Positions 1-56,895 of a stretch of DNA of 64,000 nt are shown here, in pieces. This stretch comes from Balanoglossus misakiensis. Its lineage: Eukaryota > Animalia > Hemichordata. The stretch is from assembly GCA_040954595.2 (NCBI GenBank), contig CM082594.2:8625573-8689572 (forward strand), written 5' to 3'. A model generated the notes under the pieces. That model saw only the letters and a list, made by a program, of their open reading frames with translations, was not told the DNA's origin and did not search any database. Within the stretch, counting starts at the first letter, position 1; every line of letters begins with the position of its first letter. The translations under genes were made by a program, and so were the position numbers.

Positions 1-724
1 TCATAAATGTCATGCAAGTTCTCGCATGTCTTACTTGAATAACATTCTTAGCTATTGTCTGGGTGAAAGCAAGGAAAACAATGGAAATATTCCCGAAATT
101 CACATGTATATATTATTGTGAGATATCACTGTTGGAAAGCTTGATTAAAAGACTAGCTATTGAAACATATGAGACAGAAGTACCTATTTATTAGATATCT
201 ATAGAGAAAGGCAAGGCAGTCGCGAAGTCCAAAGCGAAAATGATAATGCCAATGGAATTAAATTTGTATAAAGAAAAATCTCAAGTTATTATGGGTACCA
301 CTTTTAATACAATACTAAAATATCAAACCAAGTCAATTCCACAAAAAACAAAACTGGAAATATTTGATTACAGGAGGTAGGGATCGGTTGACATACATCA
401 GGCTTGAATTACTTTCACTTTGTCGGGTTTGTTGTTTGTATGTACGTGCCCACCCTCTGTTGTCAATTTGACCTGGTGTCACCAGTGTAGCATTCCATTT
501 TCAAAAATGGAAAGAAATCTAAGGTATCTGATCTTTTTTGGTACGCAGGAAGTTACATATATATATCAGAACAGTAAAGCTCAATTACATATAATTTATT
601 TTTATTTTATTTAGTCACTTTCTGATACATGTAATAACTATAGTGGGAGTGAGTGGGAAGTTGAGTTGACTATCTGGATTGAGCATTTGAAATACTAACT
701 TATCTGTTCTTTTTTAATTCTAAG

Positions 725-3700
725 AATGACCGGGGCCAAGGAACCACCGATGGAACGTTCCGCAAACAAAGACTATTTCAATGTGAACAGGACTGTGGTG
801 TGTTTGTCACACTTCAAAAACTCTCGGACACAGACAAGGCTGCGTCGCAAATAAAGGGCAGAGGAGCTGGGAGGGTGAAAAAGGAGGATGACGTAGAGGA
901 GATTGTGGAGGGGATGAGGGTGGTCATATTCTGTGACGAGGATGGAGAAGAACGGCTCGAACATGGAACTGTGAAGTATATTGGTAAACCCAAGAAATTA
1001 AAAGGAGAGACATTCGTTGGAATTGAACTGGTAAGCCGTTGAAATATTTCAACATTTGAAGATGTCTCTCTGTCTCAAGTCAGTGTGCTTATTCATCACA
1101 CGCCTAATGTATTTCCTGTATGCAAATTTTCAGGACAACCCAGCTGGCTCAGGAAATGGAAAGTTTGATGGTGAAAAACTGTTTGTTGCTAAAAAAGATC
1201 ATGCTACTTTAGTTCCAATTGGTGCGGTGCTGCCTTATCAATATCTTCATGACAAAAAAGGTAACTTTGAACTTGGTTAAAGTCTATGAAGGGACAAATG
1301 CAAGTTAGATATTTCCAAGGAGAATTGATATAGTAAAGGGTTTGGTTCCACTGACTATTGCTAAAAGAATCTTATTCTGATAGTGTCATTTTTCAGCACA
1401 TTAATGTATGAAACCGAAGAAATAAAAAAAATGTCAAAATAGGCGGACTTTGCCCGTATGCTGTCAAAATGGGGTGATGCCCACAATGAATCATATCCAT
1501 TTTCCAAATGATGTCATCATTCACTCTTTTGGCTGACTGTCTTTGTTTGTTTATATTTGAATGATGTCATTGTATGTCAGAAACTCCAAGCAAAATTGCA
1601 TTGGTGAAGTAGAAGTAACCTCTGCTCAATGTACAATTATTGCACTAGCATAGATAGATTCTAGTGCAGTAGGTAAAAGTGTGCATGTTAACTAATGCAT
1701 AAGACAAGTAACAAGAATATAACTGTATGGCAGATGCAGGTCCTGTCCATCGTCCACAACCAACACCAGGCACAGGATCGCAGTCTGAACTTGTGCGGAG
1801 AGGTTTTGTAGATTCCAACAAGGAGCCAGATAGAAAGCAACACCAACATCCATATGCGACTCGAAGCAAACGTGAGTATCACAGATTCCCACAGTGAAAG
1901 GGTCTACTGAGAAGTGAAACTGATAGTAAGAAATGACACTGGTTGGTCATCTTGTTTTATTTAAAGAATATATGACTCATAGACGTGCGTGTAAAAATTA
2001 TTATGTACTTGTATGGAAATTGTAATGCTCGCGAAATTGTTTTGGATGTCTGAGAGAATTCTTTGCTAAGTTAAAATGTCTGTGGCTATCAGTCACCATA
2101 TTTGATCTATTCATGAACTAACAGGGTGGGGTTACTCTCGTCAGTTGAGGTGGCTGAAACAATATTAGTCTAAGATATAATTGTATCATTTTTCTTATAA
2201 ATCAATAGCTGAAGCAAAGTCTACAGAACCAATGCCTAAACCTCTGTCTGGTACAGCTATTGATGTGCTAGATGACCAATCGAAAGAGTTGGGAATGTCC
2301 CGAGGGGATCTCCTCAAAGAACAAGAAGAACTGATGAGACAGTTTGCGCAAAGTAGAGAGAAAGAGAGCAAAGTAGCCGTTGCCAAGCCAACGAAACATT
2401 TGAGTGACAGCATGCGCATGGAGGACAGAGCTGAGGACAGCTCGCAGAGATTGCCAGCTGATGCTCACCGCCAAGAAGGACTAAGAAATTCCGTATTCTA
2501 TACTGATGGTGACAATGTCGACGATGTGGCTGAGACACCAAAGTCAAAGTTTTATGTTCCCATGACGAACAGAGCCAAGGATGGCGACGATGACTATGAA
2601 CACATGTCACCACAGTACCACGACTATGAAAATGTCCCTCATAGGAATGAACATAAACATTTTGTGTATGAAAACACGAAACCCAATAATTCAAAGCTAG
2701 AAGTTCCAGGTATGTGAAGTCACATTCTCTAAACAGGCCTAGGCATCTGTACACTGTTTCCTTCTGTTCTTTCTTCTTCTTCAGTCTCTATGTTTTTGCA
2801 TAACAACGATGCATGTTGTCATGCAAATCAGTCGCTAATCTAATAAGTGAGTAACCTTCAATATTGAATTCTTGAATAGTTGCCTCAATCTTTCTCCCTT
2901 CATTCCAGATCAAAGAAAGCCTCCACTGAAACGTGATTACTCAGATGACAGCCCCAAACTCCTTCCCCCTGGATATTTTGAGACGAATCGTACCCACGAA
3001 TTTGGTGACCTGTCACCTGACATACACCCTGGTACCGGTTACCACAACATTCGAAGGAGCTACTCCAACTCATATGCACCAGAAACGGATAAAATCCAAG
3101 TTCATCGACCAGTTTCTCCTGGTGCGTCAGCACAATCGTCGGGTGTAGATTTAAAAACGACTGATTCGTCGGATATGATGAACAAAGAAGGACACAGGAC
3201 AAGTTTTCACAGAACTCTGAGCATAGGCACCATGGTTGAAATTTTGGGTGACCCACCAAGATATGGGGTCATCCGATGGATTGGAATGTTACCAAAGACA
3301 AGCAAAGAGGCTGTTGGAGTCGAACTGGTAAGTTGCTCAGGCCTGTAACCCTTTTTTCCCAGAAAATTGTAGTGTATCTTGTCAGAATGTAGTAACACAT
3401 GTTATGTATTCATGGGTCACCAATAATGACTAAATGTTTAAATCACTCCTGCAAAATCATGGTCTTGCTTGTATTGACAATAAAGGTGTGATATGAAGTG
3501 GTCATGCTTTCATGCATGCATACAAACAAACATACATGCACACACTTGTACATATTACACAAATTTAAAAACACATGGCCTGATATGAACCTATCTATGC
3601 CAGTGTAACACATATTGCATAGAAGTTAAAAAACACAAAATTAGCTTTTAATTCTGACTCTGAATGTTTGTTTGCAGGAAGAATCATTGGGTAGCGCAAG

Positions 3701-6400
3701 CTGTACAGATGGCACTTTTCAAAAGATTCGTTATTTCAAATGTCCAGAACACAGGGGTATATTTGTTCGTGCCGAAAAGGTTCGACCCGACTCCAGGTTT
3801 ACCGTGCACAAGCCGACCAGACAAAGAAACCCCAGCGAAGGTGAGTGCTTGTGTTTCAAATTTTACTGGCAGCCCAATGCTGGGAAAGTACAGTTTACTG
3901 TTCCGAACTAAACATGATTTAGTCCTCTCTGTGAATATATATCCATCTATAAACATTTGAACCTAAGTAAGAAACTCCAGTTATTCTTTTTAATATGCAG
4001 GAGCATCTGTGTATTGTTTGAATACATCCTGACTGGTTTAGTCCAGGTAACACAAAATCTGCGGCATTGATTTATTTTCATACATAATTAACAGTTACCA
4101 GCAAAATGTTCTTTTTTTTCAGCATTTGGCAGTTACGATGCACCATGGATAGATGACTATTGTGCACCTCCTGATGAGCTGAGTCCCGAACTCTGTGGAG
4201 CCGGTCGGGGAATTCAAGGCCACCACAATTCCTGTTATTTAGATACAACACTTTACAGCATGTTTGCATTCAGTCTGGCTTTTGATGATCTCATACTGAG
4301 ACGGAGTGGTGAAGAGGATCTGGAAGGCTTCGAGGAAGTGCAGGGCATCTTGAAGAGGGGAATTGTCAACCCCTTGAGAAAGTGAGTGATGTGCGCCCTC
4401 TGGTGTTTCAGAGAGAAGCCTGAAAAATCAATGTAGTGAATGGTGGTTACAGTTTGTAAATAAATGTGGTATCATATTTTATCCATGATATAATTTAACA
4501 ACATTAATGACCACAGTTTGTGACAATGTCATTTTATTCTCAACAGACATGGCTTTGTCAGAGCAGACAGAGTTCTGAAATTTCGTGAACTTCTGGATCA
4601 GTTGGGTTCTCTGTCTGGATTGACAACGGAAGAGAAGGATCCAGAAGAATTCCTCAATACGCTGTTGAAACAAATCTTCAAAGCAGAGCCATATCTAAAA
4701 TTGAGGTGAGTAAACAGTTGAGAATTTACTGACCTGTTATGAGATATTATTTTGTGTTCACCTGAGTAGTTGACCAGTGAGAGCGTTTGTGTGTGTGTTT
4801 GTGTGTGAATAGTTAGATACAGACTTATTTAAGTAAACCAGAAGTTGCTTGACTTCGATCATTCTCACCTAAAAACAAACTCATCCTTACAGGGACGTCC
4901 AAGGCGAAGAGCATTCTAGTTACTTCTATCAGATGTTCATGGACAAAGATGAAAGCACACCGGTCCCAACAGTGCAGCAACTATTTGAACAATCATTTAT
5001 AGTTTCTGATATGAAACTTGTAGAGGTGGGTTTTCTTTATTTGGCCACCATCTCAATATCACACATCATGACGCATGGCATTGGACATGTGCAAAGAATT
5101 TCATGAATTGAATTTGTAATACATGAGCATATTTCTCGAAGTTTACCAAGTCGTAATACTTAGTATTACATTTGAATATACAGTGAGATACACTTCGTAT
5201 AAAGATGCATTTACTTTTTCCCCACAGGTGCCTCGTTGTCTGCTGCTTCAGATGCCTAGGTTTGGAAAGGCTTACAAGATGTACGACAAAATCATACCAA
5301 GCCTGAGGTTGGACATCACTGATGTCTTAGAAGAATGTAAGTCTTTAAATGAAAGTTTTCAGGCCAAGTTTCTGATTATTTGTTTCTGTAGTGACTTAGC
5401 TTTCGGAGAAGAAAATCTGTGATCATTGTCACACGTTTATCAGTTTCATTTTTTTTTAAATTTCAGTTCCAAGGCAGTGCACTATATGTCAGTTCTTAGC
5501 AGAATATGAATGCAGAGACTGCAATGTTACTAAGAGTTTCACTGAGCAGATTACTGCATATTGTGAAAAATGTGTGATATTGGTAAGTTGTGTGTGTGTG
5601 TGTGTGTGTGTGACCCGTTTCTTCCCCACTTTCAGTGGTATATTTTAATAAAAAGAAATGTTGCTTGATTCCTTCATGTCTCTGCAACCCAGTTTGACCT
5701 GAAATTTCAATTTGTCAATAAAACATTACCTAACTCCTTTACTGCACTATATTATCTACCTTCAATGTCTAACTGTCTCTATATTTAATCAACAGACACA
5801 CAGCCATCAGAAACGGAAACGCCACAAGTACACAAAGATTCACTTGGACCCAAGTTTGAAAAGTTACTTCAAGGAAAATCCAACCGAGGTTGCAAGGGAG
5901 TATTTGGAGCTGTTTGCTGTGGTGTGCATTGAAACCAGTCACTATGTCGCGTTTGTCAGATGTGGAAGGGGCGAAGACAAGCAATGGTGTTTCTTTGACA
6001 GTATGTCAGACAGACAAGGTATGTAGCAACAGAACCTTTGACTGATAGCATGATGTGTTTCCACAGCTAGTATCAATCTTGAATTTCCCACAATGGACAG
6101 TTTATAACCTCCTTGATATTTACCCGTGAAACTTTAACCCTCACCGATAATTCCTAACTGATTATAGTCCACAGCACATAGGGGGTTATAACACTGATCA
6201 CATGTATTTTTTGTGACACAGGTGAAGAAGATGGTCATAATATTCCCGCTGTGACTCATCTACCGGAATTTGTCAAGTGGTTGGAAGACGACAAGATCAA
6301 GAAAACGGACAACAAAGACATGCCTGAACATTTGCGAAGGCTTGTTTGCGACGCTTACCTCTTGTTCTATCAAAGTCCAGACGCTCTGATGTATGGATAG
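725..6400 (+). CDS. CYLD: Ubiquitin carboxyl-terminal hydrolase CYLD (5'-partial; earlier exons lie upstream)
   Basis: Phase-consistent exons 725-1030, 1134-1260, 1734-1871, 2209-2709, 2909-3327, 3678-3840, 4123-4381, 4547-4705, 4893-5025, 5228-5336, 5467-5582, 5796-6018, 6222-6400. Three CAP-Gly domains (GQGTTDGTFRKQRLFQCEQDCGVFV; GTVKYIG...VGIEL; RYGVIRWIG...VGVEL), USP Cys box GIQGHHNSCYLD, EEKDPEEFL, QMPRFG, B-box Cys/His cluster, His box CIETSHYVAF, FFDSM, end DAYLLFYQSPDALMYG*. Confidence 0.95.
5589..5612. repeat. (TG)12 microsatellite next to a CYLD splice donor
   Basis: Direct read of sequence. Confidence 0.95.
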
Positions 6401-7730: not shown

Positions 7731-9566
7731 TCACAAGTATGCAACGTAGTTGTGGGGAATCTGAATTAATGCAGCCAGCTGACCCGGAATCATGGTTGGG
7801 GCTGGATCTGGAGCAAATTTCTTCCACGACTTGTTTGCATACTGGAACATACAATTTGACCCATCATTGGGTCGCAGATCGACACTTGAACTCTGAATTT
7901 TTCCAGTCTTATTACCACTGCACACAAAGACATCGCCTTTCCCCTTGCGAACGGCAGCAGGACACCCAACAGTGTTACTGTCATCTGGTTTTCGAGGATA
8001 AACTGTCTCTTCCAGAATTATGTCTCCACTTTCTGTTGAAATTATGATCTTGTATCTGCCAAGTCGGGTGATTTCAATGGCACCAGGCACTCTCTGCACA
8101 ACAGGCGGCCATATTTGACAGGAGTCATCATCTTCCACTTCCCAGACTGCACTGCTGGGAAAGCTGGTCTGCCATTGGTCAGTGTGGGTATCATAAAAGT
8201 CTATACCCTGGCAGTTGGCCAATTGCGTGTCTCTTGCTTCTATTATGTATATGTACCTATCATTAACATCTACTGCTGCAAATTTCTTTTCATAGGTACT
8301 GGGTAATGATGCTTTTTCTACCCAGCTGTTTGTTTTAGGGTCATACATTTCCATTTTTCTGGGACAGAATTTACCACCGATGCAGTATATTTTGCTGTTA
8401 CAGACTATGCTAGTGCCGGCATAATGTAGAAATATTGGGTTTGCAATTGGATGCCATGTATTCACCAATGCATCATACATTGCAGCTGATGTTTGTATAG
8501 GGTTGTATCCCCGGGCTGTAAAAGGATCACAACTTCCTATGGTGTATAATTTGTTGTCCATTTCTATCACTTGGGTCGGCCAGATGTCCATCATGGGTGG
8601 CGGCGGAAACCCCACCCAGCGGTTCTCATCGATAATATACCCGTGGAATGATCTGGGCAGTGTTATGGCCCAGTTGCTGCCTCCACAGAGAATGAACACA
8701 TCAACCAATCTACCAAGTCTTGGCTGCAGTCTGAATCCAGCCGTGGCTTCATCAGAGTCTGTTCCTGGGGACGCAGCGTCACAATTTAACGCTCCTTGGA
8801 ACAAAGTGTTATTCCTAACTATCAACTCTTCCGCATCATAACTAGCAAGAATTTCTCCATCAATGCTGTCGAGTCGTATCTGGCTGAGGAGTTCACCGAA
8901 ATCCACCTCTCTGTTCTTTTGATCATGTTTTGTCCAACTGATGATAAATGCAAGCACGTCTTCTTCCTTGACTTGAATATTCTCATTCGAAACGATGGAT
9001 AGAATTTCCTCAAAAGGTAACTGCAGCAAAATCGACATCGAGTCTTTCATTATTTCACTTATTCTGACTTCGATTGTTCGATTTGCGGAGTCTTCCAATT
9101 TCTTCATATCGTACAGCTTGGCCAAATCTCGGACATCGAAACAGTTCGAAGCTGTCAAGTGTTTGCCAAGGAAGTTGCCGCAGAAATCTTTCAAATTCTC
9201 CATCATAAAATGATCGGCACCTCTGATGACATCATATACATTGTCCATGGTCAAATCAGCAGTCCCGGCGTACACGAAGTCAAGAATACCATGCATACCA
9301 TCGGCTGACGTACACTGCAACTCGACTCTGTTGCTGTCCACTTCGCGGAAGCCGCCCCGGAACATCGAATCGAAGTAAGCGCTGCAGGCAGCAAGAACAC
9401 AGCGATGCGCTTTGAAGTCGCGATCATCGATGACCAACTGGACATCACAGAAAAGTCCGCTGTCTCTCTGGTGTTGCAACTGTTCGATCAGAAGAGATCG
9501 GTGACGGCTATGTATTTTTTCTTGCGTTAGTTCGGCATCGACGTCAGCTTCCAGAGCTTCTGCCAT
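7731..9566 (-). CDS. Kelch-like BTB-BACK-Kelch protein, 611 aa, uninterrupted ORF
   Basis: BTB signature FCDVQLVI...FKAHRCVLAACSAYFDSMF, BACK domain (LTASNCFDV...VKEEDVLAFIISW), Kelch blades (FILCGG, KLYTIGS, KIYCIGG...YDPKTNSW, YDTHTDQW). Confidence 0.93.
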   Translation of the reverse strand: MAEALEADVDAELTQEKIHSRHRSLLIEQLQHQRDSGLFCDVQLVIDDRDFKAHRCVLAACSAYFDSMFRGGFREVDSNRVELQCTSADGMHGILDFVYAGTADLTMDNVYDVIRGADHFMMENLKDFCGNFLGKHLTASNCFDVRDLAKLYDMKKLEDSANRTIEVRISEIMKDSMSILLQLPFEEILSIVSNENIQVKEEDVLAFIISWTKHDQKNREVDFGELLSQIRLDSIDGEILASYDAEELIVRNNTLFQGALNCDAASPGTDSDEATAGFRLQPRLGRLVDVFILCGGSNWAITLPRSFHGYIIDENRWVGFPPPPMMDIWPTQVIEMDNKLYTIGSCDPFTARGYNPIQTSAAMYDALVNTWHPIANPIFLHYAGTSIVCNSKIYCIGGKFCPRKMEMYDPKTNSWVEKASLPSTYEKKFAAVDVNDRYIYIIEARDTQLANCQGIDFYDTHTDQWQTSFPSSAVWEVEDDDSCQIWPPVVQRVPGAIEITRLGRYKIIISTESGDIILEETVYPRKPDDSNTVGCPAAVRKGKGDVFVCSGNKTGKIQSSSVDLRPNDGSNCMFQYANKSWKKFAPDPAPTMIPGQLAALIQIPHNYVAYL

Positions 9567-9632
9567 AGTTGTCCTGAGTGACCCCGTTTGACCTCATTGG
9601 TTGAGGGCGCTACACAACCTGACCCCACTGAA

Positions 9633-11148: not shown

Positions 11149-13296
11149 TCAGTAGAGTAATGGTGTCACCCTGCAAGAGTGGAAAGAATTCAATGACTTA
11201 GAGATCGGCATGGAAACAAAGAAACTTCGCAGTAGGTATCACATGTACAGGAAGTACACCTTTAATACATGCTCTGGGGTACTGCTCACTCAAGAGTACA
11301 CAACATGACCGGTCATCTCTGTATTATTTCTGTTTAGCACTGACCTTTCATAGGCAGATTGATCAAAATCATCCATGTACTCCATATCATCATCTTCCAC
11401 ATCATCATCAACGCCCAGACTGAGATCGTGACCAATGCCAGAGTCCCCAGCTGACCGGCTGGCTGTTGAGCTGTAGAAAGAAAAAAATCCCAGAGATGCC
11501 AAGTTGTAATCTAACACTGTATCTGATAATCTAGGATTGGCTGCTTCAATCATAACAGAAACCAAAGACTTAATTTGCTCTGTGGGGCAGGGAAGTTATT
11601 TTCATTACTCAGTCATCTTATATATCAAGCTAAATATGGCAAATATCAAGATATGAAAACAAGTTCTGTAATACACACACTCTGTCGGACTCGTGATGTT
11701 CAAAAATTGCCAATGGCCAACATCACTTCTCACTGTAAACTAAGATGACTTTCAGATTTTAAATAAGAGTTATTCACAATAACAGGAGATTAGGATGGTA
11801 GCCTTACCTGATTACTCTGCATGTGAAGAACAGGATGCGTTTTAACTTCTTGTTGTAGATGAAATAATTACAAGACCAGAGGATACCTTCTTCACCAAAG
11901 GGATCACACTCCAAGTCAGGGTTGTAACTATTTGTGAATAATGACAATTAACATTTTTTGTGATTATCAATCATCAAACATGTCACCGACTGCATTTTTC
12001 ATGGAGCAAAACATTCAGGCTTTCTTACAAAAACTTTACTTTACCTGTAGAATTCGCAACTGTCCAGGGAAATTTCATCATCGATGGCAGCCCAGAGCTT
12101 TTGCTTCAAAGCTGAGTACAACTCCCCACCAGCAGCGAAGAGATTCGTGTCAATAGCATTGACTACCCACTGAAGGCTTGGTTCACGACTAAATTCATGG
12201 CTTTTCGCTTCACTGTGGGGAAAAGGAAAAAATGATTTCCAACTTCATAATATTCAAAGCAGCCAGGATGTAAATTGCAAAGTTTGAAAGTGACACCCGT
12301 AGTCATTATTTGAATATTGGAGTAGTCCTTCATGTCCAGGGTTGTCAATGGCCCTTATGGGTGAGAGTTCAAATGCTTAATTAATTTGTGATTTCAGCTG
12401 GCATTATAATTTCTATGTTACTGCAACATAAATGGGGAAACTGTTACCTGAAATCATAGTCTGGGTGAAAGGATGCATTCAGAGTTGAGATGAGATAGAA
12501 TAACATCTTTCTGCTGCATGTATCGCACAGCGGGCCCTCTCCTTCATCACTGGCACTTCTGCTGTACTGTCGATTGGGACTCAGTGACAACTGAGTTTGT
12601 GGCGGAGACAGAGCCTGCAAATCGTGCGGAGACTGGCCTTCGTGACTCATCACTTTGAACAGACGTTTGTCATTTCCAGCCATCTTGCAGGAATAGCTCT
12701 CAACCCTGCAAAGATAAAGATATTTCTGCTGGTTTGACCTTCCAGAACAACACTGGAGAACTGAGTGACCTCAATGACATGTACACACTGACCTTTAGCA
12801 GATAAATGAGGTCAGCATATAAACAAGTAACATGAACATGTAACTCTATTATCAAAATTTATTAAAGTGTCATAGTATTGCTGCTTTGTAGCTTTTCTCA
12901 TCATCAGCTCATAATATCAGTGACAGTCCTTCACCTCTATTTAATTTGAGCAAATGTTTGTGGATTGGCATTCATTAATTATTTATTTGTGAATGTATCG
13001 ATTAGGGGCTTGGTTACATGTATTTAAAGTTCAGGTCCTGATCGAGACGGTAAATCAGATATATTGCAATGTACGTACCAATCCAGACAACTATATGTCT
13101 GGGCGACCTACAATGTAACATTGATATCACAATCTCGTGAACAGGAACAATACACCCACATATTAGTATGCAAACGAAACCAGTCTTGTCGCACAAAACA
13201 TAGTCGAACTCACCTTCCGCAGATCTTGCTGTCTCCTGTTTCGATTGATAAAGCATCGCTTATTGCCTCTAACTTCGGATTCTCGAGTAACTTCAT
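11149..13296 (-). CDS. MAF1: Repressor of RNA polymerase III transcription MAF1
   Basis: Exons 13296-13214, 12705-12448, 12212-12045, 11927-11808, 11470-11345, 11170-11149 (last exon less certain; unspliced read-through would stop at 11290). [13 protein letters not shown]...[65 protein letters not shown], acidic tail. Confidence 0.95.
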
Positions 13297-14392: not shown

Positions 14393-17300
14393 ATGGCTGT
14401 AGGTACTATGTTACTTTCAAAAAGGGCAAATTTGCTTCGTTTTGACCCCAACAGACAGCCGCCATGGTGTTCTTTGAACGATCCTAACGACAGAGGCAAT
14501 GATACTGTGGTGGACGTGCAGGTGTTTGAGCAACCCAATGGCAGGTTTCAAATTATAGCAAATCACGCTGTTGCGCGAACGGTAAGTATGGGTTTATATA
14601 ACAACTGTTATTTTCTAGCCCAGAGCTTTCTACAGAGCAGACCACGACTTCACAAGTGACCGTGGATGGATGCACCAATCAGATGCAGGTGGAGGTAGAC
14701 AAAAGATGACAATTAACATCAAGCAATGACTAAATGCACATTTTAGTACAATTTAAGAATTGTCAGATATTGTTTCACTTTTGAACATTTCATTTCAGAG
14801 TGTACTAAACTTCTTTCTGAATGAAGTACATTATGAAGTCAAAGAGCCAGCATGGCACGAAGTGACGGTTCATGACCAGAAGTACGCCATTCAGTTCAAT
14901 GGAGAAAGGGATGGACAAGGCTTTGCAACTATAGTACAGAACTCATTACATGAAATAAAACGAGCTGGTACAGGTTTGTAAACATACATGGACTAATTAC
15001 AATAATTTGCTTGCACTCGTGGCACAGTTACCTGGATTTACTTCAACCTGTTTATTTTTCCCAGCATGCATTTTTTCTGTTGTATCTGTTGTCAGGCTAT
15101 TCTTAACGTGTCTCACTTCCTCTAAGTACTGTTGCTTGCATGGTGCTGTTGCCCCATACAGTACTTTTGCATGCGTGACACTATTGTTCGTTTAAACTGA
15201 CAGATAACAGCACCAGATTTGGCAATGTTGGTATACCTCTTCCTGGTTTGATTTCACCAAGGACAACAAAAGAGGCTTGGTCGCCACCTGGTGGTGTGTA
15301 TAACTTCTCTTTCTGTCTCTGTCTCAACTATTACAACTATTAAATGGTCAATTTTTAAACCAGTGTTGACTCATAAACCCACACAAGCAGAAGTTAGTTA
15401 CAATGTAAGTTTGTGCTATCATGTGTGGTAAGCCCCTCATCACAAAAATACCATTTTCTCATTTGTCAGGTTTCAGAATGACCTCTTTTCCATTTCTGTT
15501 CAGGAATTTCTCAACCTGGAATGGTCAAAGCTGGTACACTTCCTGCAAGTCGATCTGTTGTGTCTGGCAGACCGTCACAAATCAGTACAACAAGGAGACC
15601 AGCTGATTTTTCCAAAGGTACATACATGTATAGATGTTTTGGGGATCTTTCAGCGTTCTTCCAGAATAACAAAATTGATAGTTGGGAATGTGTTAGAATT
15701 TGTGGGACTGGACCCAAATTTGTGGTGAAAAGGTGACATACTTTCAAGACCGGTAATAATACTAATCACCAACAAATGCTTTCTTTTGATTTTGTGAAGT
15801 TCCGTCGCACGATGAGTTAATGCTGGCCATTGCACGTGGTGATGTCAACGCTGCCAAGACAATCGCTGCAATGTTAGCCGAAAACAAGACACAGTTACAC
15901 ATCAGTCCATCTGCAAATGCAAGACCCTCACGCTTTGATCAGGGACAACCAACTATCAGGTGAAATTCTTGGATTGCTCAGCCTATATTTAACCTTCCAA
16001 ACTTGCTGAACCTCAGAAACAATTTCTGTCTGGGTAGATGTACGTAAATAGGTTATTATGAGAGACAAGAAAATTGTTTTAGGAATGCTGATAACACTCC
16101 TGCTATCCATTTAAATTTTTCATTCATATACAGAGGGGAATCCCAGTAATGTATACCCGGACACCGCCCTACAAATACACAGGTGCATCAGTAGCTTAAT
16201 ATAGAGTCACACACAAAAGAGTGGGTGGGCCTTTAAGAGTACAAGTTAACGATTTTTATTTACCGTATATGGCTCTTTTTTTATTCAGTATACGTGTGCA
16301 CATTGAAGATAAATTTACGTCTGGAGGAAGAATTCCACTGAAGGTGAAACCAACAATGACAATTGCTGAACTCAAGAGAGAGGTCAGTAAATACATGTTT
16401 TGATAAATGTGACCATTTTGCTTTGAAACATATTGTCATTACTTGCTACAGTATTGCAGGCATGCCAGTATTGTCACCTCTGACCTGTTACCTTTGACCT
16501 TTTCTTCGCAGATAAGTGACAAGTACTCATTCCCTGAAGCAGTGCAGCAATGGATTGTGGGTAAAAGGCTTGCGAAGGACGTCGACACCCTCGTAGGACT
16601 GGGAGTGGCCTCTGGATCTTCAGTCTACCTTTATCTGATGTCTGCCGACTCTGTTGGACTTACGAAAGAACGTTACGAAAACGAGAAACTTGCCCGGCTG
16701 TACCCAAATCAGAACCAGGGGAATCGGCAAGCTCAGAATGGACAGGGTTCTGACATTGGTGCAGTTGGAGGACAAACCATGCCCAGACAACAACAAGCTG
16801 GTATGGTGTATAATGTACTACCTGGCGATGAGAGAATAGAAACTGCAAGACCAAATCAAATGGGTAAGTGTTAAATTAATGAGGCTTCACTCCATCATTT
16901 GCAACTGTGTTTTATGTGTGCACATTATACGGATGTGGAAGTTAGAGCAAGTGGGGCTTTGATATGTTTTGGAGGTCAGTGTCCTGATACTAGTTTGTTA
17001 TGATTTTTGTTTAGCTGCTACCCACGCTGGTGTCATTAGAGATCTGGATGATTATCATGAAGAAGTGACCAGACGACCTACTCAACCTCCACCGCCACCA
17101 CCAACAAGGCAACAACAACAACAACAGCACCAACCACTGCAAAGACAACCCAGCAGAGGGGTTAGTATCAATCTTGCAATCAACCATTGTTATTTTCTTG
17201 AATAATTTTCATCATAGATGTCTGTTGACAATACCTGAACATTTTACTGTGTTCAGATTGGTTGAAATATGATTTTTTTTCTTTGATGTGTATATAATTA

Positions 17301-20183
17301 GTAGGCGTTTAAAATGTTGCTTGGTGTATTTTTTTTCCTATCAGGTTGGTTGGGAGTGTCCCGTTTGCACGTTTATAAATGAACCCACTCGACCAGGCTG
17401 TGAAATCTGCAGCGCAAGTAAACCTGAAGATTTTGTGCTGCCTGAAAACTACCAACCAAGTGAGAGAGAAAAGGAACGCCTAAATGAAGAGGCCCGCAAC
17501 AGAGAACTACTGCAGCAAGTAAGTGAAAAAAAAATTATAAACCCGTGTTTGACACACGAATCAGAATTGACAGATCAAGATCGTTGTGATTGGCTTAGCT
17601 GAAACATGTGACCCTAAGCTGACTGATCACAAAAAAAAACCACATTATTGGTGAGCCCAGGAACATGTATAACAACAACCAGTACATCAACATCCAGGCT
17701 TTGAGCATTTGTATGCATATTCCAGAGCCTGAGCCATCCATGATAGGTAACCTTCGTAGGTTTTTGCTTTCCTGCTGAGAGACTGTTAGGCAAATTTAAT
17801 ACCATTAGAGAAAAACTATTGAATGATTGTCATGTCTTCCTAATGTTCTCTCTCTTTCTCCTTTCGTTCTGCCGCAGGCGGAGGAGGAGGAACGAAAGAA
17901 GAGAACGGAAGCCATGGCTCGCTTGATTGGTGCAATTAGAGAAAATGCTGATGTGTTTGATATCAATGATGATGAGGACGAGGATGATGATGTACAAATA
18001 CTACATGAACGCCAAAATGACTCTGATGAGGAAAACTTTAGACTGTAAAACAATCATTGCACTATTGGATGGGCCGTGACAACTTAATTATGTAGCAGGG
18101 CATATTCCTGTCAGATTAAAAAAAATTCAGTAGGAAACAAAAGCCTGCAAAGAAAAAGAAAAAAAATGATTAAAGAATAGCATAATTGTTATATCATGTC
18201 CAAGATTGAGTCCTTTAAGAAATAAATATTATTTTTTGTGTATTTCCTTTTTTTTCGTTTCAATATATATCTTTACTCTTTGCTCTGTGGCCCATGTTGT
18301 TTCATTTGGGCCAGAAAGATCCTTTTGAGAGGGTCTGAGAAGATCTCTATTTCTGTGATTTCAGTGAATATTACGCAAGTATTTTTGCTCTGTCATGTGA
18401 GATTCATCTGAGCCATCAGTGGGCGATGAAAATAAAGTGAGAAATTAAATTAAGGAAAATCAAGTTGTGACTTGCTTTATTCTGTCGTGAATAACATCAA
18501 TGTTTTATTTCTGAGACCTGGTCCCCCTATTCGCTAGTATATTATTCCAATCATAACAGTTCAACCCAAGGAGATCAAACCAATTTGTTGGGATGGAAGG
18601 GGAAAGACAACAAGTAATAAAAATTTGTGGATGAATTCCGTCACCAGGCGCAGGAAATGGAAGAACAGGTGAGACTACAGCAACGTCAGGCCAACTTTGC
18701 TCGGCTGATGGCAGCGGCTGAAGACCAGGCCTTGATTCCCAATCAAGAAGAATTTGATTGTTTGATCTGCTTTGTACCAATTGATCCTGGGGAGGGCGTC
18801 ATACTCAGAAATTGTCTCCATTCATTCTGTCGGTAAGTTCATCTTGCCCCTGAGAAATTACCTGGGTGTTAAAAGATGCAGTACAGTACAGTAGAGTACA
18901 GTGCAGTATAATACAATACGATTCAATACAATACAATACAAAGAAAATCAAAATTTATTTTTCTAATCCAGGCAATGAGCTGTGTAGCTAAGACATAAAC
19001 AATACATCAGTCTGATATACATGACATTTAAATACACCCAGTATACATAGACTTGCCAGATTTCTCCAGCGCTAAACAGCTGATCTTTGTGCATAAACAG
19101 GGATTGTTTAAGAGATCACATCAACCTGAATGAAGAGGCGGCTGTGATGTGTCCATTCCAAGATGATGTCTATTCATGTCAGTCGTCCATTGCTGACAGA
19201 GAAGTCAATGCAGTAAGTGTTTTTAACCCTTTCACCACCATGTTTTGGACCAGATCCATTGTTTTCTATGGTGAAGTTCTTTACCAATCACGACAGTTTC
19301 ACTCATCTTTCTGTCTCCTTCCTACCAGTTGGTGTCTCCAGAGCAGTTTCAGAAATACCTGCAGCGAAGCCTTCACACAGCTGAAAACATGGCCGCCGAT
19401 AGCTACCACTGCAAGACGCCAGATTGCCAAGGGTGGTGTTACTACGACGACAATAATAATTCCTTTGACTGCATGATATGCCATAAACGGAACTGTTTGA
19501 CGTGCAAAGCCATCCACGAAGGGTTAGATTGCAAGCAGTACCAGGATGATTTGAAACGCCGGGCTGAAAATGATATTGCTGCAAAACAGACCAAGGAAAT
19601 GCTAGAGGTACTGTTGTGTTCGTGTATTTATAGATTAACATGTGTAAAAATGTGATAAACTTGCCGACCAACAAAAACTTCAGTTGTACGTGTAATGTGT
19701 TCAGTGTTCTATTCATATACATCAAACAATTTCCTCTGGTTTTTTAATCCTTCACAGCAACTGGTAGCGGACGGAGAAGCCATGGAATGTCCGCGCTGCA
19801 GAATCATCTTACAGAAGAAGGAAGGCTGTGATTGGCTGCGATGTACCATGTGTAAACTTGAAATCTGTTGGGTGACTAAGGGGCCGCGGTGGGGTGAAGG
19901 GGTAAGAAGCTTTTTAAGTATTCATTCAGTATGATGCAATATCTGATTTTTTCGTAAATAACATCTTGGATGCTTGTAAGTGAAACCTAAAAGAAGATAC
20001 GAAAAATGACGTGATTGTCATGTAACAATGTCTAATCTATTCATTTCTGATGTAATTTTGATGTCACCCTTCATAATTTCTGTGTTTTGAATTATTTCAC
20101 AGGGACAGGGAGATGTGAGCGGCGGATGTCGTTGCCGGGTCAACGGGATGAAATGTCACCCAAACTGCAGAAACTGTCACTGA
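14393..20183 (+). CDS. RBCK1: SHARPIN/HOIL-1L (RBCK1)-like LUBAC subunit, long form about 732 aa: PH - LTM - UBL - NZF - RING1-IBR-RING2
   Basis: Exons 14393-14581, 14799-14967, 15504-15617, 15800-15959, 16289-16382, 16512-16863, 17015-17160, 17345-17518, 18648-18832, 19101-19212, 19329-19607, 19758-19901, 20103-20183, all phase-compatible. SHARPIN-type PH ([16 protein letters not shown]...[16 protein letters not shown]), LTM ([24 protein letters not shown]), UBL (IRVHIED...[10 protein letters not shown]...YLYLMSA), NZF ([21 protein letters not shown]), RING2 active site [12 protein letters not shown]-1-type end [21 protein letters not shown]. Confidence 0.92.
17878..18048 (+). CDS. Putative alternative terminal exon giving an RBR-less, SHARPIN-like isoform (about 522 aa)
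   Basis: Long polypyrimidine tract plus CAG ending at 17877, phase 0 matching the NZF exon donor (17518), 56 open codons [23 protein letters not shown]...EENFRL*, then AATAAA at 18221 and 18431, upstream of the RING1 exon. Confidence 0.65.
   Translation, partial: AEEEERKKRTEAMARLIGAIRENADVFDINDDEDEDDDVQILHERQNDSDEENFRL
18880..18940. repeat. Degenerate pentanucleotide repeat (AGTAC grading into AATAC) in an RBCK1 intron
   Basis: Direct read of sequence. Confidence 0.85.
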
Positions 20184-23928: not shown

Positions 23929-26900
23929 ATGCAGCTGTCGGGTTTTCAATGCCCTATGTATCACAATAGCGCCAACCAACCAAAACGGATCTCAAGTCGT
24001 CGCAACAAGCCAGTCTGCGGTCTACTTCTTGCCCTCGTCTTCACTCTCACGAACCAAATCGCACCAACTCATGCAGGTAAGCCCATGAATATTAAATTAA
24101 AATCATTTACCCTCAAGGCGGATTCTTCTTAATTTTTAATCGACTCGTTCTCACCTGGCCCAGATGCAATTTCTCTCGATTACTTAAAAATCCTACCCGT
24201 CTTTTGCAGAGGGGCTGGTGTGACTCATTGCGAGGAGTCTCAGTATAAAGTAGTCTAATTGAGTTGTGTTTGAGTTGGGGCTTAGGGCTACATTATGAGA
24301 AAACGCAAAACCGGCTTAGGACGCAACAAGGTTTCTATTGCCGGGGGTCTATAATACAAGTTCATTCATTGGACATTCATGACTGTTCGAAAATTGCCGT
24401 CTTTATTTATCATTGAAATGAACGCACTTCAGTTTCAATACAAGCACCAGTTTCGAGTCCAGAACTCAACAACGCCATGCTCGTGTACGTTTGTCTTCAT
24501 GACGAAAGAATGCAAATGTTTTATTAAAGGTAGCTTGTGAAATTGTTTAAAGTTTTCATCCAGTTCCAGTAAACTTTAAAACCAGATAAACCAGAAAAAC
24601 TTTTAGGTAAATACGGTATGAACAGGTGTCATACAGAGAAGTATACGAAGTGCTCAGAACAAACAAACTGATATGTTTGCCTTGCAATCAAGCTGATGGC
24701 CGCCAGGCAGATCCAGACACGTTGTTTTAGCTAATGCGTTCTTTTCTTTACGTGCGGTCTCTTCGTAGAACCCCGCCATAGATAAAACTTGACAACCGTC
24801 GCTCAGCGAACCCACACTCCCAAAACACCCCGAGTTCACTGTAAGCATAAAACTACCAAATTTTATGTAGGATTTTTTTTTCACGCAACTATCGATTTTT
24901 TAATTGACACTAGAAATAGCTAGTCTTTGTCGATCGATAGGTTTGGCAATAGTGTAGCAGTGTATAAGGTTTTGCGACTTAACCAATACGCATGTGCTCA
25001 GACAGACAGACAGACAGACTGACAGACAGAAAGACAGACAGAAAGATAGACAGACAAACAGACACTCAGGTACAGTACCATGTACCCTACTATATCTATC
25101 TGCCAGAAGCTGTCATTGTGGCATGCAACAAAGTAAAGCAAATATAGCGAGCGGCCCGCAGCCATGCAGATGGAAAAGAGTGCGTAACAATGATATGTAC
25201 GTGGTGTATGCATGAAATCTTGTTAAGGGAACTCGGTTTCTAATGTCCTTCCAAACGACAAAAACAAACACTATGAATTGAATCCCAGATTCCTACACCC
25301 GTTGGTAAGATTCAAACATGCCTTTCACTGGTTACAAAACTTTCGCGAACGGATCCTGTCTAGCAAACTTTACTCAGAACTGTGCTTGGAGAGAGTACAA
25401 AATATAAATTTCATTCGCTGAAAGCGTGAGGGAGTCATGGCAACGAGACGCGCTGTTAGCACAGGGGTCTGTCCTAATCCTCTAAACCTCGCAATACACA
25501 GTAGTGTAATGGAGTCCGTGGATTTGCGTATTTTACGGTTGCGTAATGAGCTCCCAGCCTCAGAGCTCTTTGAAAAAACAAACTGGACGACACAGCATTA
25601 CTGATGGACTCACCGGCAATGTGTTTGTGTAATTAACAGATGGGGGAGAATAATACACAGGTTCGGCAAATAGAGGCTTACACAATTGCCAGTTAACACC
25701 TGACTTTCCAATTGTGTACATCTCCACGGAGACAATGAATCTAACGGGGCTTGCTGTATATGACAGGGTGTCATTTAATTAACGGTCTCGGTAGATTTCT
25801 GTACTTTTACAAAGTTGAAATATTACCTATTTAATAGAATTTGAAACTATAGCGAGTCATAGTCACATAAAATGTCCTACATGTATTTTGTCTCAGTACA
25901 TTTACACGTACGAAACAGCCTCGCACCCTATGGACTGTGCTTTGTCAGTGGACCAGCCGTCGAACAGGTGTCTGCCGGAGCACTTAATCAATGGACGAAC
26001 CCTTTATGACCCTTTACGATCTTTCTTTTAAAACATCCAGTACAAGCCCTCTTAATGATAGTTTCTCAAGATTTCGCACGTCAGTCAGTGTTAATTTTAA
26101 TCGGATGGTTTTCCCACCCGTTGTAAGGAACTTGAAACAATAAAGCGGTGTTGGTAAAATGGTATGCCTTCCGGCACCGGTGACTGGTACCAACTCTTTA
26201 TTTCTCTCGCGCCTAATTACTATACAGCCCTTAAAGAAATTTTAAATTCAGAAGCTCAGGGTGGCCTTGACAGATCATTTTGTATGGACTAGGGTAGCTA
26301 ACTCCTTTGAGGCGGAAACATGACAAGAAGTTGTGGCTGCCAGATAAAATTGTTTACAAGTGGCGCTGATAAAATCCAATTCGAGAGTTTTCGGATATAC
26401 AAATGTACGTCGGTATCCAGTCGTTTGGATGATAACAAACCAAATAGGCGTATATTATGTTAAGTGACAAAATTATATGTATTTTTGTTGTTGCAGAATT
26501 TGAACAATGCTTCCCAGATGACGAAGAGATCATCTTCGAAGATGAACTTTATGCAACAAGTACATCCACCGCCTGGTGGCCGATTCCTGGAGTGGCCATT
26601 TTCATCTTCATGGTGGCGGGCATCGTCATCTTCAGCTTCGCGTTCAGTTGGTTCGTACGGGAATACTTAGACGCGTACTGCGAGTTCTGCTGGAGTTGTG
26701 GAAAAGGGGAGAAGTATGATGATGACGAGGAGGAGGAAGAGGAAAAAGATGTCGTGAGGGACACGGAGGAAGACAAGCGGCCGGTAGAGACACTCCGGCT
26801 GAAAAGTGCCAGGAAGGGGAGAAGGAAGAAGGACCCGGATATTGAACGACAGGGGAGTAATCTGTCCGAGGAGCCGGACGAACTGACGTGGCAAATTAAA

Positions 26901-27938
26901 GTCGACGAATTTTTGAGGGATATGCCGGACGGCGCGAGTGTGAACCACTTGTACAATGACTCTTTTCCTAGGAAGAGCAGTTTGGCCAGCAGTCGATTTG
27001 TGAATGAGAAGGACAGACACACAGACCATAGCAACACGGATACTGAAGCGACACCGAGGACTCATATAACTGTGACGTCATCAAAAGATGGTAACAAATC
27101 CGGCAACGAAACTGATAGAAGTGGTGTCGTTACTACGCAACCAGTAGCTTCCACATCTGGCGTGAAGGAATCTCCGACAACTCCAGTACCATCGACTTCA
27201 AAGACTCAACAGCAGACAGGCAGTAGGCCGCGCACGGCTGCAAAAGCCCCGGCATCAAAGTCTACGACTGCGCACACTTCTGATAGAAGTCCGACGAGGC
27301 CATTGACGGCTGGAAGGAGTGTTGCTGTCCGGTCAACGATTGCGCAAACTCAACACCAATCCGTTGGAGCCGAGACCCGTTCTCGGCCGCAGACTGCCGG
27401 GAGAACTTCCGCGGCCAGACCGACAACTGGTGCAGCTGCGCACAGGACTTCCAAAGTGTCTCCGGAGAGGCCGAAAACAAGGCAAGGTGGTCGCCCAGCA
27501 ACTCGCCATGGCAACAGCGAGTCGCCGGCGGCGGCTCCGGTTACACCAACCAGCGCCAGAAAACGAGAGCAACAGAAAAAGTTCGACGATGCTTGGGATC
27601 AGCAGCAAGACGTGAAAGCGTTGGCACTGGACGACGACGAGTATTTACAGGACGATTCCAACAAACCCGGATCGTTACAAAAACAGCTGCAGACACCCAG
27701 CAAACCTGCTCCCCAAGAACAGACACGAGAGCCAGCTAGACCTCTCATCGGTATCAGGCGACCGAGTCAAACCGCGCAACAGTTTAAAACTACGGGGCGA
27801 ATGACGAAGTCGTACAATAGAAAAGACAGTGGGATTTCTGTCTCCCAGAAGACCGAGTCGCCTGTAAGCACTACAGTGCCCGAGGAAGGCGATAAATCGT
27901 CGATGCCCTCTCAGACTTCCGCTACTGTTCACAGGTAG
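23929..27938 (+). CDS. Uncharacterised type I single-pass membrane protein, about 529 aa, two exons
   Basis: Exon 23929-24076 (ends in signal-like VCGLLLALVFTLTNQIAPTHA, donor GTAAG, phase 1) joins in frame to exon 26497-27938 (acceptor TTGCAG). TM helix PIPGVAIFIFMVAGIVIFSFAFSWFV, Cys cluster, long S/T/R/P-rich tail. Start codon choice uncertain; further small exons cannot be excluded. Confidence 0.75.
24999..25063. repeat. (CAGA)n tetranucleotide microsatellite, imperfect
   Basis: Direct read of sequence. Confidence 0.9.
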
Positions 27939-31557: not shown

Positions 31558-32516
31558 CAACCTAATTTGGAGTCAAATGCATAATTCATATTGCACATGT
31601 ACCAGATAAATATAATCTTAATTCTGAAATCTTTAACAATCACAATTATGGGATCAAAATCCCTCTTTTACATACCCCAAACCTCCCCTCTTTCCAACCC
31701 TCAGAATCACCCCTTTTCATTTCAGCCCCCAACATTAAATGCCTCCTTCCCCTTCCAAAAGACAATAGATCTTGCAGTAAGTTTTCGATTGTTAAAAATA
31801 TACATTTTCATAGGCTGATAAAGAGCAAATTTATGACATATGATATACCTACATTATAATTTTGTTAAAGCGATAAATAATTTTTTACAGGGGCAAGGTA
31901 TCTCTATCTTTTAGTGGTAAATTCTGGTTTGATAGATTAACACTGTTCATATTGTTAAACTTACTGATCAGATTGAATCGTCAGTCATCATAAACTGCTG
32001 CTACCATGTATGCGGGGGCATAACATATGCCATAGTATTATTTTCATGCCATATTCACAAGAACACACAGAACATTAAACACAACAACTCACACAAAACA
32101 AACAAGCAGAATAACAATGATAAAAGTTTGAAACTTTGCCCCTGTAGCATTTTGAAACATTGCATTTTAAAACAGTGCAGTATTGATTTACGTCATATTC
32201 TATCCCTACACTTATAATTAATTTCCTTACTTGCATAAGTAAATGGATTTCTATCAATGCAGCTGCATACTGACGCGAAACGATTTCTACTTTCACAGAA
32301 ATTACATAGTCACAAGTTGTATCATGATGATGTTCATAGTTGTACCATACATTCCAAAGTTGTACAGTACATTTCGTGTACAGCACAACAAGTCTCTTCA
32401 TCTAACTTCCCCTCCATTTGCTGAGCTGTGGATTATCCCAATGATATTCTGAGAGTTGGTTCATTCCATTTGCAGCAGTACAGGGGTGTCAGAGGCTGGT
32501 TGATGAGTAATCTTTG

Positions 32517-37961
<5,445 letters not shown>

Positions 37962-38943
37962 CTTCCCTGTAATGGAAGTAAAATAATAATTTTCAACTCA
38001 AAACTCTTGCTAACAAACTCTTACATCCACACTTTATTTGTTTTTGTTTTTTTAAATGGAATATCTGTTTGTGGGAGAGCTAAACTGATGTGATCACCCT
38101 TGGAGATAAGGGGAATAACTGAAACCCATAATTCAAATCAACCACGGTACAAAGTCAGTTGATGTGTTTGTTTGTACGTAAATTGCAGTCAGGTCATTTC
38201 TTCATAGTAAATAGTGTTGGACAGTGAGTGTGTCCAGTGTCCAGAGATCGGTGGCACCTTAGAGTACCTCCATAGTATGCTGGAACCATGGGGGTAGAGC
38301 AAACAACTCCTTGGTCCATGAATGTTTATTGACAACAGAGGGGAGGGGCCGGCCAGGTATACACACTGACATTGACAACAACCAAACAGGAAGACGCAAT
38401 ATCTTGACGCACTTGTTCCATTGCATTATTCTCTCTATCATCTCCGCATCTTATTCCGTTCGATAATGATACACTCACCGAGTTTTGATGAATTGCATAT
38501 AAATATCGCCGATTTCTTTCAAACTGAACGACAGGGCGCGAATACCTTTTCGTCCACACAACCACTTCAGAATTTATCATCTGAGTACGAGTACGAATGT
38601 AAGAAAATATAATCTACATCCGGGGCGTTGGAAAGCCCTTTAGGTTGATGAATATTGCACATACTGTGATTTGTGTCGCTTTTGCTGTGCTTCCATCTAC
38701 GTCCTGTTAGACATTAAACGATAGGCAAAAGTAAAATGTTATATTCTTGAAATTCCCTCGAATACATGACACTTTCGACACGGTAATACATCTCTAAAAG
38801 TCAAAAGTCGGGATGCGTGCAAGGGAGTCAACCAGAAGTTTACTATGGAATTGTGGGAAATCATCCTCGGCAGCCATATTTACCGGCGTGAACTCAAGAC
38901 CCATTTTCGTCACGTACACTTTATATAATTTCATCGGGCAAAT

Positions 38944-44064: not shown

Positions 44065-46511
<2,447 letters not shown>

Positions 46512-47880: not shown

Positions 47881-47913
<33 letters not shown>
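47881..47913. repeat. (CA)n microsatellite between tubulin copies 1 and 2
   Basis: Direct read of sequence. Confidence 0.95.
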
Positions 47914-47915
<2 letters not shown>

Positions 47916-48346
47916 ACACAGACGTGCGTCTTTAACACCACGCCTAGCTGTGTTCATGCTGATAAGCACATAAGCCAAAACGAATTTTCATTCAAAGAGT
48001 TAAAAATTTATTAATATTCCAACACTTAGAGATTGGCAAAATAAAATACGAAAATACACGGATCTGAAATGATAATTTACAATGTAATTAGTCGGTGCAC
48101 CTTTCGAATGCATGTTTTAGTACTCAGAGTCAAAGTCTTATCTCAGATGACATCATCACATGCTGTCTCGATTTTTGATATACACTGTACCAGCAATATA
48201 GTACTCGGTTTGTGGCTCCTGTTAATTTGCAAGTGTAAAGAAAAATGCAACACAGCGACAAAATAAAAGTAAAGCGCTTTTGATGGTCGATGGGCGATAG
48301 AAAGTCAGAGTTGATTTTCGGATCGAGATTGTCGACATGGAGCTGT

Positions 48347-50587
<2,241 letters not shown>

Positions 50588-54786: not shown

Positions 54787-56895
<2,109 letters not shown>

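What the first reader, a model, noticed from the sequence alone, without database searches (positions are those of the whole stretch)
17345..18832. One gene, two LUBAC subunits: an alternative last exon could switch between SHARPIN-like and HOIL-1L-like proteins
Seen: after the NZF exon there are two phase-0 acceptors. The first (17878) has a strong pyrimidine tract, reads 56 codons to a stop and is followed by AATAAA at 18221 and 18431. The second (18648) opens the RBR ligase. Established: vertebrate LUBAC uses HOIP plus two LTM-UBL-NZF paralogues, SHARPIN (PH, no RBR) and HOIL-1L (RBR, no PH), whose LTMs co-fold. Inference: splicing and polyadenylation choice here yields PH-LTM-UBL-NZF (SHARPIN architecture) or the full ligase, so a three-subunit LUBAC could be built from two genes and its HOIL-1 activity tuned by isoform ratio. 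The vertebrate gene pair would then be two ancestral isoforms split between duplicates.
Basis: partly seen in the sequence, partly recalled or inferred. Interest (0 to 1): 0.9.

Follow-up and report, generated by a model that had tools for sequence, protein, structure and literature searches.

The report
One gene, both LUBAC helper subunits
This acorn-worm-like animal has a gene related to two mammalian immune-signalling proteins (SHARPIN and HOIL-1L), with an extra stop exon that likely lets it make either the full ubiquitin ligase or a ligase-free scaffold, and annotated proteins of molluscs, a shark, a frog and reptiles end early at the same junction, which suggests how SHARPIN may have begun as a splice form.

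Summary
Observation confirmed. The gene has 14 exons (PH-LTM-UBL-NZF-RBR, 763 aa), is closest to Ptychodera, and lies head-to-head with MAF1, the neighbour of mouse Sharpin. Intron 9 is 1129 nt (the others 116-329). It holds the best acceptor of 71 AGs (17878), 56 in-phase codons, a stop, no downstream donor, and AATAAA with a U-rich element. No RNA could be laid on the window, so use of this exon is inferred. Orthologues carry the case: 20 stored proteins leave at the same junction into a stop exon. That exon is conserved within bivalves and from shark to frog, squamates and a bird-like fragment, with RefSeq isoforms (Aplysia X2, Saccostrea X3) and an intron-free contig. Corrections: non-mammalian SHARPIN still encodes a full RBR and keeps both forms, so the split between paralogues was late and lopsided. 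The short form keeps the HOIL-type NZF tail that human SHARPIN lacks. The three clades' stop exons show no detectable homology, and the window's resembles its own RBR-opening exon. Ptychodera and Glandiceps clusters hold no short form, and 11 worm-like introns share no stop exon. Not found in print in 10 searches; RBCK2 is the precedent.

The parts
14393..14581 (+). exon 1, start codon, first half of PH domain
   Evidence: AG/GT model; aligns with Ptychodera and Glandiceps N-termini
14799..14973 (+). exon 2, Sharpin PH domain
   Evidence: PF16764 E 1.9e-8
15204..15290 (+). exon 3, likely cassette exon (29 codons)
   Evidence: present in X1 and absent in X2 of both Ptychodera and Glandiceps
15504..15617 (+). 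exon 4, linker
15800..15959 (+). exon 5, LUBAC-tethering motif (LTM)
   Evidence: PF25393 28.6 bits, above the 27.5 cut-off
16289..16382 (+). exon 6, UBL first part
   Evidence: aligns to P0001 UBL (PF00240 E 7e-8)
16512..16863 (+). exon 7, UBL second part and linker
17015..17160 (+). exon 8, Pro/Gln-rich linker
17345..17518 (+). exon 9, NZF core plus HOIL-1L-type tail; shared phase-0 donor at 17519
   Evidence: PF00641 E 2.3e-9; best PDB match HOIL-1L NZF 3B08, residues 1-50, E 8e-19
17853..17877 (+). strong pyrimidine tract and CAG acceptor of the stop exon
   Evidence: best of 71 AG sites in the intron
17878..18048 (+). candidate alternative last exon (X): 56 codons plus TAA; predicted helix 2-24, then acidic disordered tail
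   Evidence: same-position stop exons in orthologues
18221..18290 (+). AATAAA with U-rich downstream element, likely proximal poly(A) site
18431..18436 (+). second AATAAA
18648..18832 (+). exon 10, helix and RING1 start; weak acceptor
   Evidence: RING profiles; pyrimidine content 0.55
19101..19212 (+). exon 11, RING1 end
19329..19607 (+). exon 12, IBR
   Evidence: PF01485 E 4e-6
19758..19901 (+). exon 13, RING2 with GCDW catalytic motif
   Evidence: PF22191 E 2e-6
20103..20183 (+). exon 14, C-terminal zinc-binding end and stop (distal AATAAA at 20680)
11290..13296 (-). MAF1, head-to-head; its start codon is 1.1 kb from this gene's; 3' end approximate
   Evidence: PF09174 E 7.5e-21; translation; Maf1 lies 5' of mouse Sharpin (PMC7371178)

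Best explanation
The window holds a hemichordate pro-orthologue of SHARPIN and HOIL-1L whose ninth intron contains an in-phase stop exon, and splicing into it with proximal polyadenylation likely yields a 553-aa PH-LTM-UBL-NZF protein without the RBR, beside the 763-aa ligase. Shown: the gene structure, the domains, the tree position, and same-junction stop exons in molluscs and jawed vertebrates. Inferred: use of the exon in this animal. The strong proximal acceptor would compete with the weak distal one and the intronic poly(A) site would end the transcript. Predicted from mammalian LUBAC: both isoforms bind the two UBA domains of HOIP through identical UBLs and co-fold through their LTMs. 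Their ratio would then set the number of HOIL-1-type ligase centres per complex (0, 1 or 2). In mammals that activity dampens LUBAC output, so more short form would mean more M1 chains on targets. History (inferred): after the vertebrate duplication RBCK1 lost the PH domain, while the MAF1-linked copy kept both forms from sharks to reptiles and lost the RBR only in the mammal line, by a truncation upstream of this junction.
For: Intron anatomy. Same-species or same-genus long/short pairs that are identical up to the junction and differ after it: Chiloscyllium punctatum 474 of 474 residues, Crotalus 426 of 429. RefSeq short isoforms: Aplysia X2, Saccostrea echinata X3. Three gene models chain stop-exon sequence and then the RBR exon, which fixes their order (P0045, P0222, P0242). 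Stop-exon peptides are conserved within clades in leave-one-out tests: 8 of 8 bivalve-type and 7 of 7 vertebrate peptides beat all 500 shuffles. L031 holds an intron-free 672-codon frame running LTM-UBL-NZF into the bivalve-type exon, a stop and 584 nt of tail. L046 shows the genomic form: donor, 1.7-kb intron, pyrimidine tract, 46 codons, stop, AATAAA. All vertebrate paralogues form one clade (99/98) without the window gene; joining hemichordates to the PH-bearing clade is rejected, p-AU 0.007. LTM co-folding: PMC6044281. HOIL-1L E3 dampens LUBAC: PMC8534859.
Against: The 90% clusters of the two nearest relatives hold only long forms (Ptychodera 2 of 2, Glandiceps 2 of 2), and no short Ptychodera protein was among the 36 hits. 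The window's exon matches neither the bivalve profile (273 of 300 shuffles score as high) nor the vertebrate profile (150 of 300). Its 5' DNA resembles the gene's own exon 10 (2-14 of 1000 codon shuffles; the other 12 exon starts >=113 of 1000), as a decayed duplicate would. Eleven distinct worm-like introns share no stop exon, one is only 268 nt, and one shows the motif set with an unremarkable peptide. AATAAA excess over shuffles is borderline (110 of 2000). Most vertebrate short forms are gene predictions, not curated transcripts.
Confidence: 0.66

Rival explanations
1. The exon at 17878 is a decayed tandem copy of the start of exon 10 that is not used, or used only as noise; the gene makes just the full ligase.
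For: DNA likeness to exon 10 only (whole-exon local test 17 of 1000); no short form in the Ptychodera or Glandiceps clusters; no homology to other clades' stop exons; 1 of 11 control introns shows a similar motif set.
Against: Its acceptor is better than that of exon 10 and the best in the intron; the frame stays open and in phase for 56 codons; AATAAA occurs in introns only behind its stop; orthologues in two other clades use this junction for a conserved stop exon.
Confidence: 0.2
2. The short isoform is made but works as an inhibitor or anchor of the long form, like mammalian RBCK2, or as a PH/NZF scaffold outside LUBAC, not as a stoichiometric SHARPIN-like subunit.
For: RBCK2 lacks the IBR, binds RBCK1 and inhibits it (passage in PMC4064560; title in the PMC8245127 reference list). 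A mammal-type RBCK1 record (P0138) leaves at this same junction into a 20-residue tail. The short form keeps the HOIL-type NZF tail, so it is not a copy of mammalian SHARPIN.
Against: It retains a complete LTM and UBL, the parts that build the mammalian ternary core (PMC6044281); truncated HOIL-1L that keeps its N-terminal region still supports LUBAC (PMC8534859 passages).
Confidence: 0.14

Closest known systems
Mammalian SHARPIN
   Same: PH-LTM-UBL-NZF without RBR; gene next to the 5' end of MAF1 (PMC7371178)
   Different: A separate RBR-less gene of 387 aa that ends about 10 residues after the NZF core; here it would be an isoform that keeps the 36-residue NZF tail and adds a 56-residue helix plus acidic end
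Mammalian HOIL-1L (RBCK1)
   Same: LTM-UBL-NZF with tail, RING1-IBR-RING2, GCDW motif and terminal Cys-His
   Different: Has no PH domain; no vertebrate-type stop exon found in the one RBCK1-type intron available (L048)
RBCK2, splice variant of RBCK1 (Tatematsu 2008; seen as a passage in PMC4064560 and as a reference title)
   Same: RBR-less isoform of a HOIL-1 gene that modulates the full form; P0138 departs at the same junction
   Different: Appears to arise by exon skipping with frameshift (inferred from P0138; details recalled), lacks PH, and is described as an inhibitor, not a LUBAC subunit
Non-mammalian vertebrate 'sharpin' / shrprbck1r genes (database annotations)
   Same: PH-LTM-UBL-NZF-RBR long form plus short form through a stop exon at the same junction
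   Different: They coexist with a separate RBCK1; their stop exon (GRRE motif) is not detectably related to the window's
Mollusc RBCK1-like genes with short isoforms (Aplysia X2, Saccostrea X3)
   Same: Same junction, same order, same acceptor-frame-stop-AATAAA anatomy
   Different: Different stop-exon peptide with its own conserved leucine motif in bivalves

Membership tests
HOIL-1L/RBCK1 RBR ligases (long form) | LTM, UBL and NZF ahead of RING1-IBR-RING2 | tested here: met
   Pfam hits on exons 5, 9, 10, 12, 13; 527 of 734 aligned residues identical to Ptychodera X1
HOIL-1L/RBCK1 RBR ligases (long form) | NZF tail helix for M1-chain binding | tested here: met
   aligns to 3B08/8IM5 across core and tail, YxP motif kept (PMC10511788)
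HOIL-1L/RBCK1 RBR ligases (long form) | no PH domain; one-to-one orthology with vertebrate RBCK1 | tested here: not met
   PH present; gene lies outside the vertebrate duplication, so it is a pro-orthologue
HOIL-1L/RBCK1 RBR ligases (long form) | ligase activity (mono- or oxyester ubiquitination) | not testable with these tools
   catalytic motifs present in the model; no assay
SHARPIN (short form) | PH-LTM-UBL-NZF without RBR | tested here: met
   predicted isoform; conditional on use of the exon
SHARPIN (short form) | locus at the 5' end of MAF1 | tested here: met
   PMC7371178 passage for mouse; divergent orientation in mammals is recalled
SHARPIN (short form) | NZF core without HOIL-type tail, gene without RBR exons | tested here: not met
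   tail kept; RBR exons follow
SHARPIN (short form) | LTM co-folding with HOIL-1L and UBL binding to HOIP UBA1 | not testable with these tools
Alternative last exon with intronic polyadenylation | 3' splice site, stop, poly(A) signal and no 5' splice site | tested here: met
Alternative last exon with intronic polyadenylation | spliced, polyadenylated transcripts in this species | not testable with these tools
   no run could be laid on the window
Alternative last exon with intronic polyadenylation | conservation in near relatives | tested here: inconclusive
   absent from Ptychodera and Glandiceps protein clusters, their DNA not available; same-position exons in molluscs and vertebrates without sequence homology

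The most novel reading that the evidence does not exclude
SHARPIN began as a splice form. Across bilaterians one PH-LTM-UBL-NZF-RBR gene supplies both accessory subunits of LUBAC through a stop exon behind the NZF exon, kept from a common ancestor or re-invented at least three times (bivalves, acorn worms, jawed vertebrates). Non-mammalian vertebrates then run a LUBAC with a switchable third RBR ligase, and mammals froze the short state.
Probability: 0.45. Interest if true: 0.85.

Novelty: new variant of a known kind. Interest (0 to 1): 0.7.

Why it matters
LUBAC is the only maker of M1-linked ubiquitin chains, and why it needs two look-alike accessory subunits, only one with a ligase, is unexplained. 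A conserved last-exon switch gives a testable origin for SHARPIN and a natural dial for HOIL-1 ligase dose, the activity that limits LUBAC output in mammals. It also means that fish, frog, reptile and bird 'SHARPIN' is often a second HOIL-type ligase, which affects how knockouts and annotations in those models and in farmed bivalves are read.

Tried and rejected
No whole genome is held for this window, so a separate SHARPIN gene could not be sought. RNA runs: none was listed, so no reads were laid; this is no evidence either way. Complex prediction of the LTM pair was not available; no verdict. ESM Atlas gave no usable hit for the exon peptide. Pfam has no match for it. A single-sequence fold gave a low-confidence model (pLDDT 65, helix 2-24). 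Homology among the three clades' stop exons: not detected. Stop exons as copies of the RBR-opening helix at protein level: not significant for bivalves, vertebrates or the window (sum over three acorn-worm sequences 205 of 2000); only the DNA test on the window was positive. Many short database hits begin with Val at the junction and are intron read-throughs from gene callers; they were not counted. A bacterial promoter/terminator scan is irrelevant and was ignored. Monophyly of PH-less RBCK1 was neither shown nor rejected (support 42). Earlier findings of the scan: nothing returned. Literature: 10 searches found no paper on an RBR-bearing SHARPIN or this exon; subscription papers (such as older RBR phylogenies, recalled) and supplements were not seen and may mention the duplication.

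Full report
The gene. Exon edges were fixed by AG/GT rules and phase: 14 exons from 14393 to 20183 give a 763-aa frame with one terminal stop. Pfam finds Sharpin PH in exon 2, LTM in exon 5, NZF in exon 9, RING in exon 10 and IBR profiles in exons 12 and 13. The model aligns end to end with Ptychodera flava (527 of 734 residues identical to X1) and Glandiceps talaboti (466 of 739), and the tree places it with these two (100/100), so the animal is likely an acorn worm. MAF1 lies head-to-head, its start codon at 13296 on the minus strand. In mouse, Maf1 lies 5' of Sharpin (passage, PMC7371178), and a human insertion within SHARPIN is 424 bp from the MAF1 start (table passage, PMC4741842).

The observation. 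It holds at every coordinate. Acceptor 17878 is the most pyrimidine-rich of 71 AG sites in the intron (0.86) and the RBR acceptor is weak (0.55); 56 in-phase codons and TAA follow. Intron 9 is 1129 nt, the other twelve 116-329 nt. AATAAA occurs three times in the 599 nt behind the stop and never in the other 2729 nt of intron; against shuffles this is borderline (110 of 2000). The 18221 site has a 60% T downstream element, and no donor-like pattern was found in the exon, so it would be terminal. As a control, 1 of 11 unrelated introns at this position shows a similar motif set. The sequence alone is therefore suggestive only, and no reads from this species could be laid on it.

Orthologues. 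A search with the Ptychodera protein returned reptile and bird 'sharpin' and shark proteins of 640-770 aa with a PH domain and a full RBR, plus short forms. The short forms leave 36 residues after the last NZF cysteine, exactly at this junction. A profile-free search of 1.84 billion representatives (best 150 of 720 hits read) and a profile search (91 hits) added more. Of 304 distinct stored proteins, many of them fragments or read-throughs, a script flagged 27 with a UBL upstream, no RING and 10 or more residues after the junction. I dropped 7 by eye (P0125, P0138, P0140, P0183, P0219, P0229, P0233: skips, frameshifts, read-throughs, an unshared end, a pattern miss), which leaves 20. Seven are vertebrate (Chiloscyllium, Xenopus laevis, Crotalus, Naja, two geckos, one unnamed), five are named molluscs (Aplysia RefSeq X2, Saccostrea RefSeq X3, Pinctada, Potamilus, Plakobranchus) and eight are unnamed. 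In Chiloscyllium punctatum the long and short proteins agree in 474 of 474 residues up to the junction and in none directly after it. Three gene models run stop-exon sequence and then the RBR exon in one chain (Crotalus horridus, Aplysia, Magallana), which shows the order in the genome. Several unnamed proteins of 430-680 aa sit on contigs of 1.7-2.5 kb; I infer that these are assembled RNA, but saw only lengths. Among 49 metagenome loci, L031 holds an intron-free 672-codon frame into the bivalve-type exon, and L046 holds the genomic anatomy the window shows.

Conservation and its limits. In leave-one-out tests each of 8 bivalve-type and 7 vertebrate stop-exon peptides beat all 500 shuffles against a profile of the others, the shark included. 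The exon is thus conserved within each clade. Across clades nothing matches: the window's peptide scores at chance on both profiles. Its first 60-120 nt resemble the start of the gene's own exon 10 (12, 2 and 14 of 1000 codon shuffles; all 12 other exon starts 113 or more), while the protein-level test is not significant (205 of 2000). The window's exon may be a local duplicate of the RBR-opening exon recruited as a last exon, which favours repeated origin or replacement over simple descent. Results against: the Ptychodera and Glandiceps clusters hold two long isoforms each and no short one; 11 distinct worm-like introns share no coding block and one is 268 nt; the one RBCK1-type fish intron has no vertebrate-type stop exon.

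History. In a tree of the NZF-RBR region (33 rows) all vertebrate sequences form a clade (99/98) with a nested PH-bearing group (100/98) that includes sharks. Forcing the hemichordates into the PH-bearing group is rejected (p-AU 0.007, 20 rows); monophyly of the PH-less group is unresolved. The window gene is therefore a pro-orthologue of both. The duplication predates the split of sharks and bony fish, yet the PH-bearing copy kept the RBR and the stop exon in shark, frog and squamates. Human SHARPIN has 387 aa (passage, PMC12722640) with W379 already outside the NZF (section 3.2, part 1 read, PMC9884707), so it ends before this junction. Monotremes and marsupials were not seen.

Mechanism. 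[quoted passage not shown] Inferred: the two isoforms share LTM, UBL and a tailed NZF, so they could fill the two UBA sites of HOIP in any pairing, and last-exon choice would set ligase dose. LTM self-pairing was not modelled here; PDB 8K6Q holds four chains of the isolated HOIL-1L LTM, which I did not examine. I put use of the exon in this animal at about 0.75-0.8 and the full model at 0.66.

Prior knowledge. RBCK2 is an RBR-less RBCK1 variant that inhibits the full form (passage, PMC4064560). The databases already hold the isoforms unremarked, and the gene name shrprbck1r occurs in one listed paper (listing only). Passages of the Drosophila papers (PMC5090701, PMC6462001) and of PMC9527308 do not discuss this. 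Ten searches found no description of the stop exon or of RBR-bearing SHARPIN; subscription journals and supplements were not covered.

Verdict. A real feature with good comparative support but no direct transcript evidence in this species; a new variant of a known kind; interest 0.7.

Noticed in passing
window 15204-15290: 29-codon exon between PH and LTM that is present in X1 and absent in X2 of both Ptychodera and Glandiceps: a likely conserved cassette exon.
   Followed up: partly
window 683-6100 (+): CYLD-like gene (CAP-Gly-like and USP-like exons, recognised by eye; UCH profile weak, E 0.005) about 8 kb from this LUBAC subunit gene; CYLD cleaves M1 chains. Linkage may be chance.
   Followed up: no
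window 7731-9593 (-): Single long frame of 620 codons that looks like a BTB-kelch protein (by eye).
   Followed up: no
window 26448-27938 (+): 496-codon frame with a transmembrane-like segment and a long low-complexity tail.
   Followed up: no
window about 32500-38000 (-): Rubicon-homology domain gene (PF13901, E 1e-11).
   Followed up: no
window about 45500-61500: Cluster of at least four near-identical beta-tubulin genes on both strands, differing in their acidic tails.
   Followed up: no
P0105 (Branchiostoma lanceolatum): About 55 extra residues inserted at the same NZF/RBR junction, absent in B. belcheri models; may be part of an amphioxus stop exon.
   Followed up: no
P0138: Mammal-type RBCK1 record of 273 aa that leaves the same junction into a 20-residue tail, RBCK2-like.
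   Followed up: partly
P0246, P0251, P0252, P0255, P0258, P0286: Crickets, bugs, cockroach, termite and a damselfly have HOIL-1-like RBR proteins, often 1300-1900 aa, although Drosophila is reported to lack one.
   Followed up: no
L002-L037: In worm-like loci the junction lies 32 instead of 36 codons after the NZF, and no shared stop exon is seen.
   Followed up: partly
P0001, P0003 (Ptychodera): The LTM lacks about 11 residues, including the likely beta strand, compared with the window and Glandiceps.
   Followed up: no
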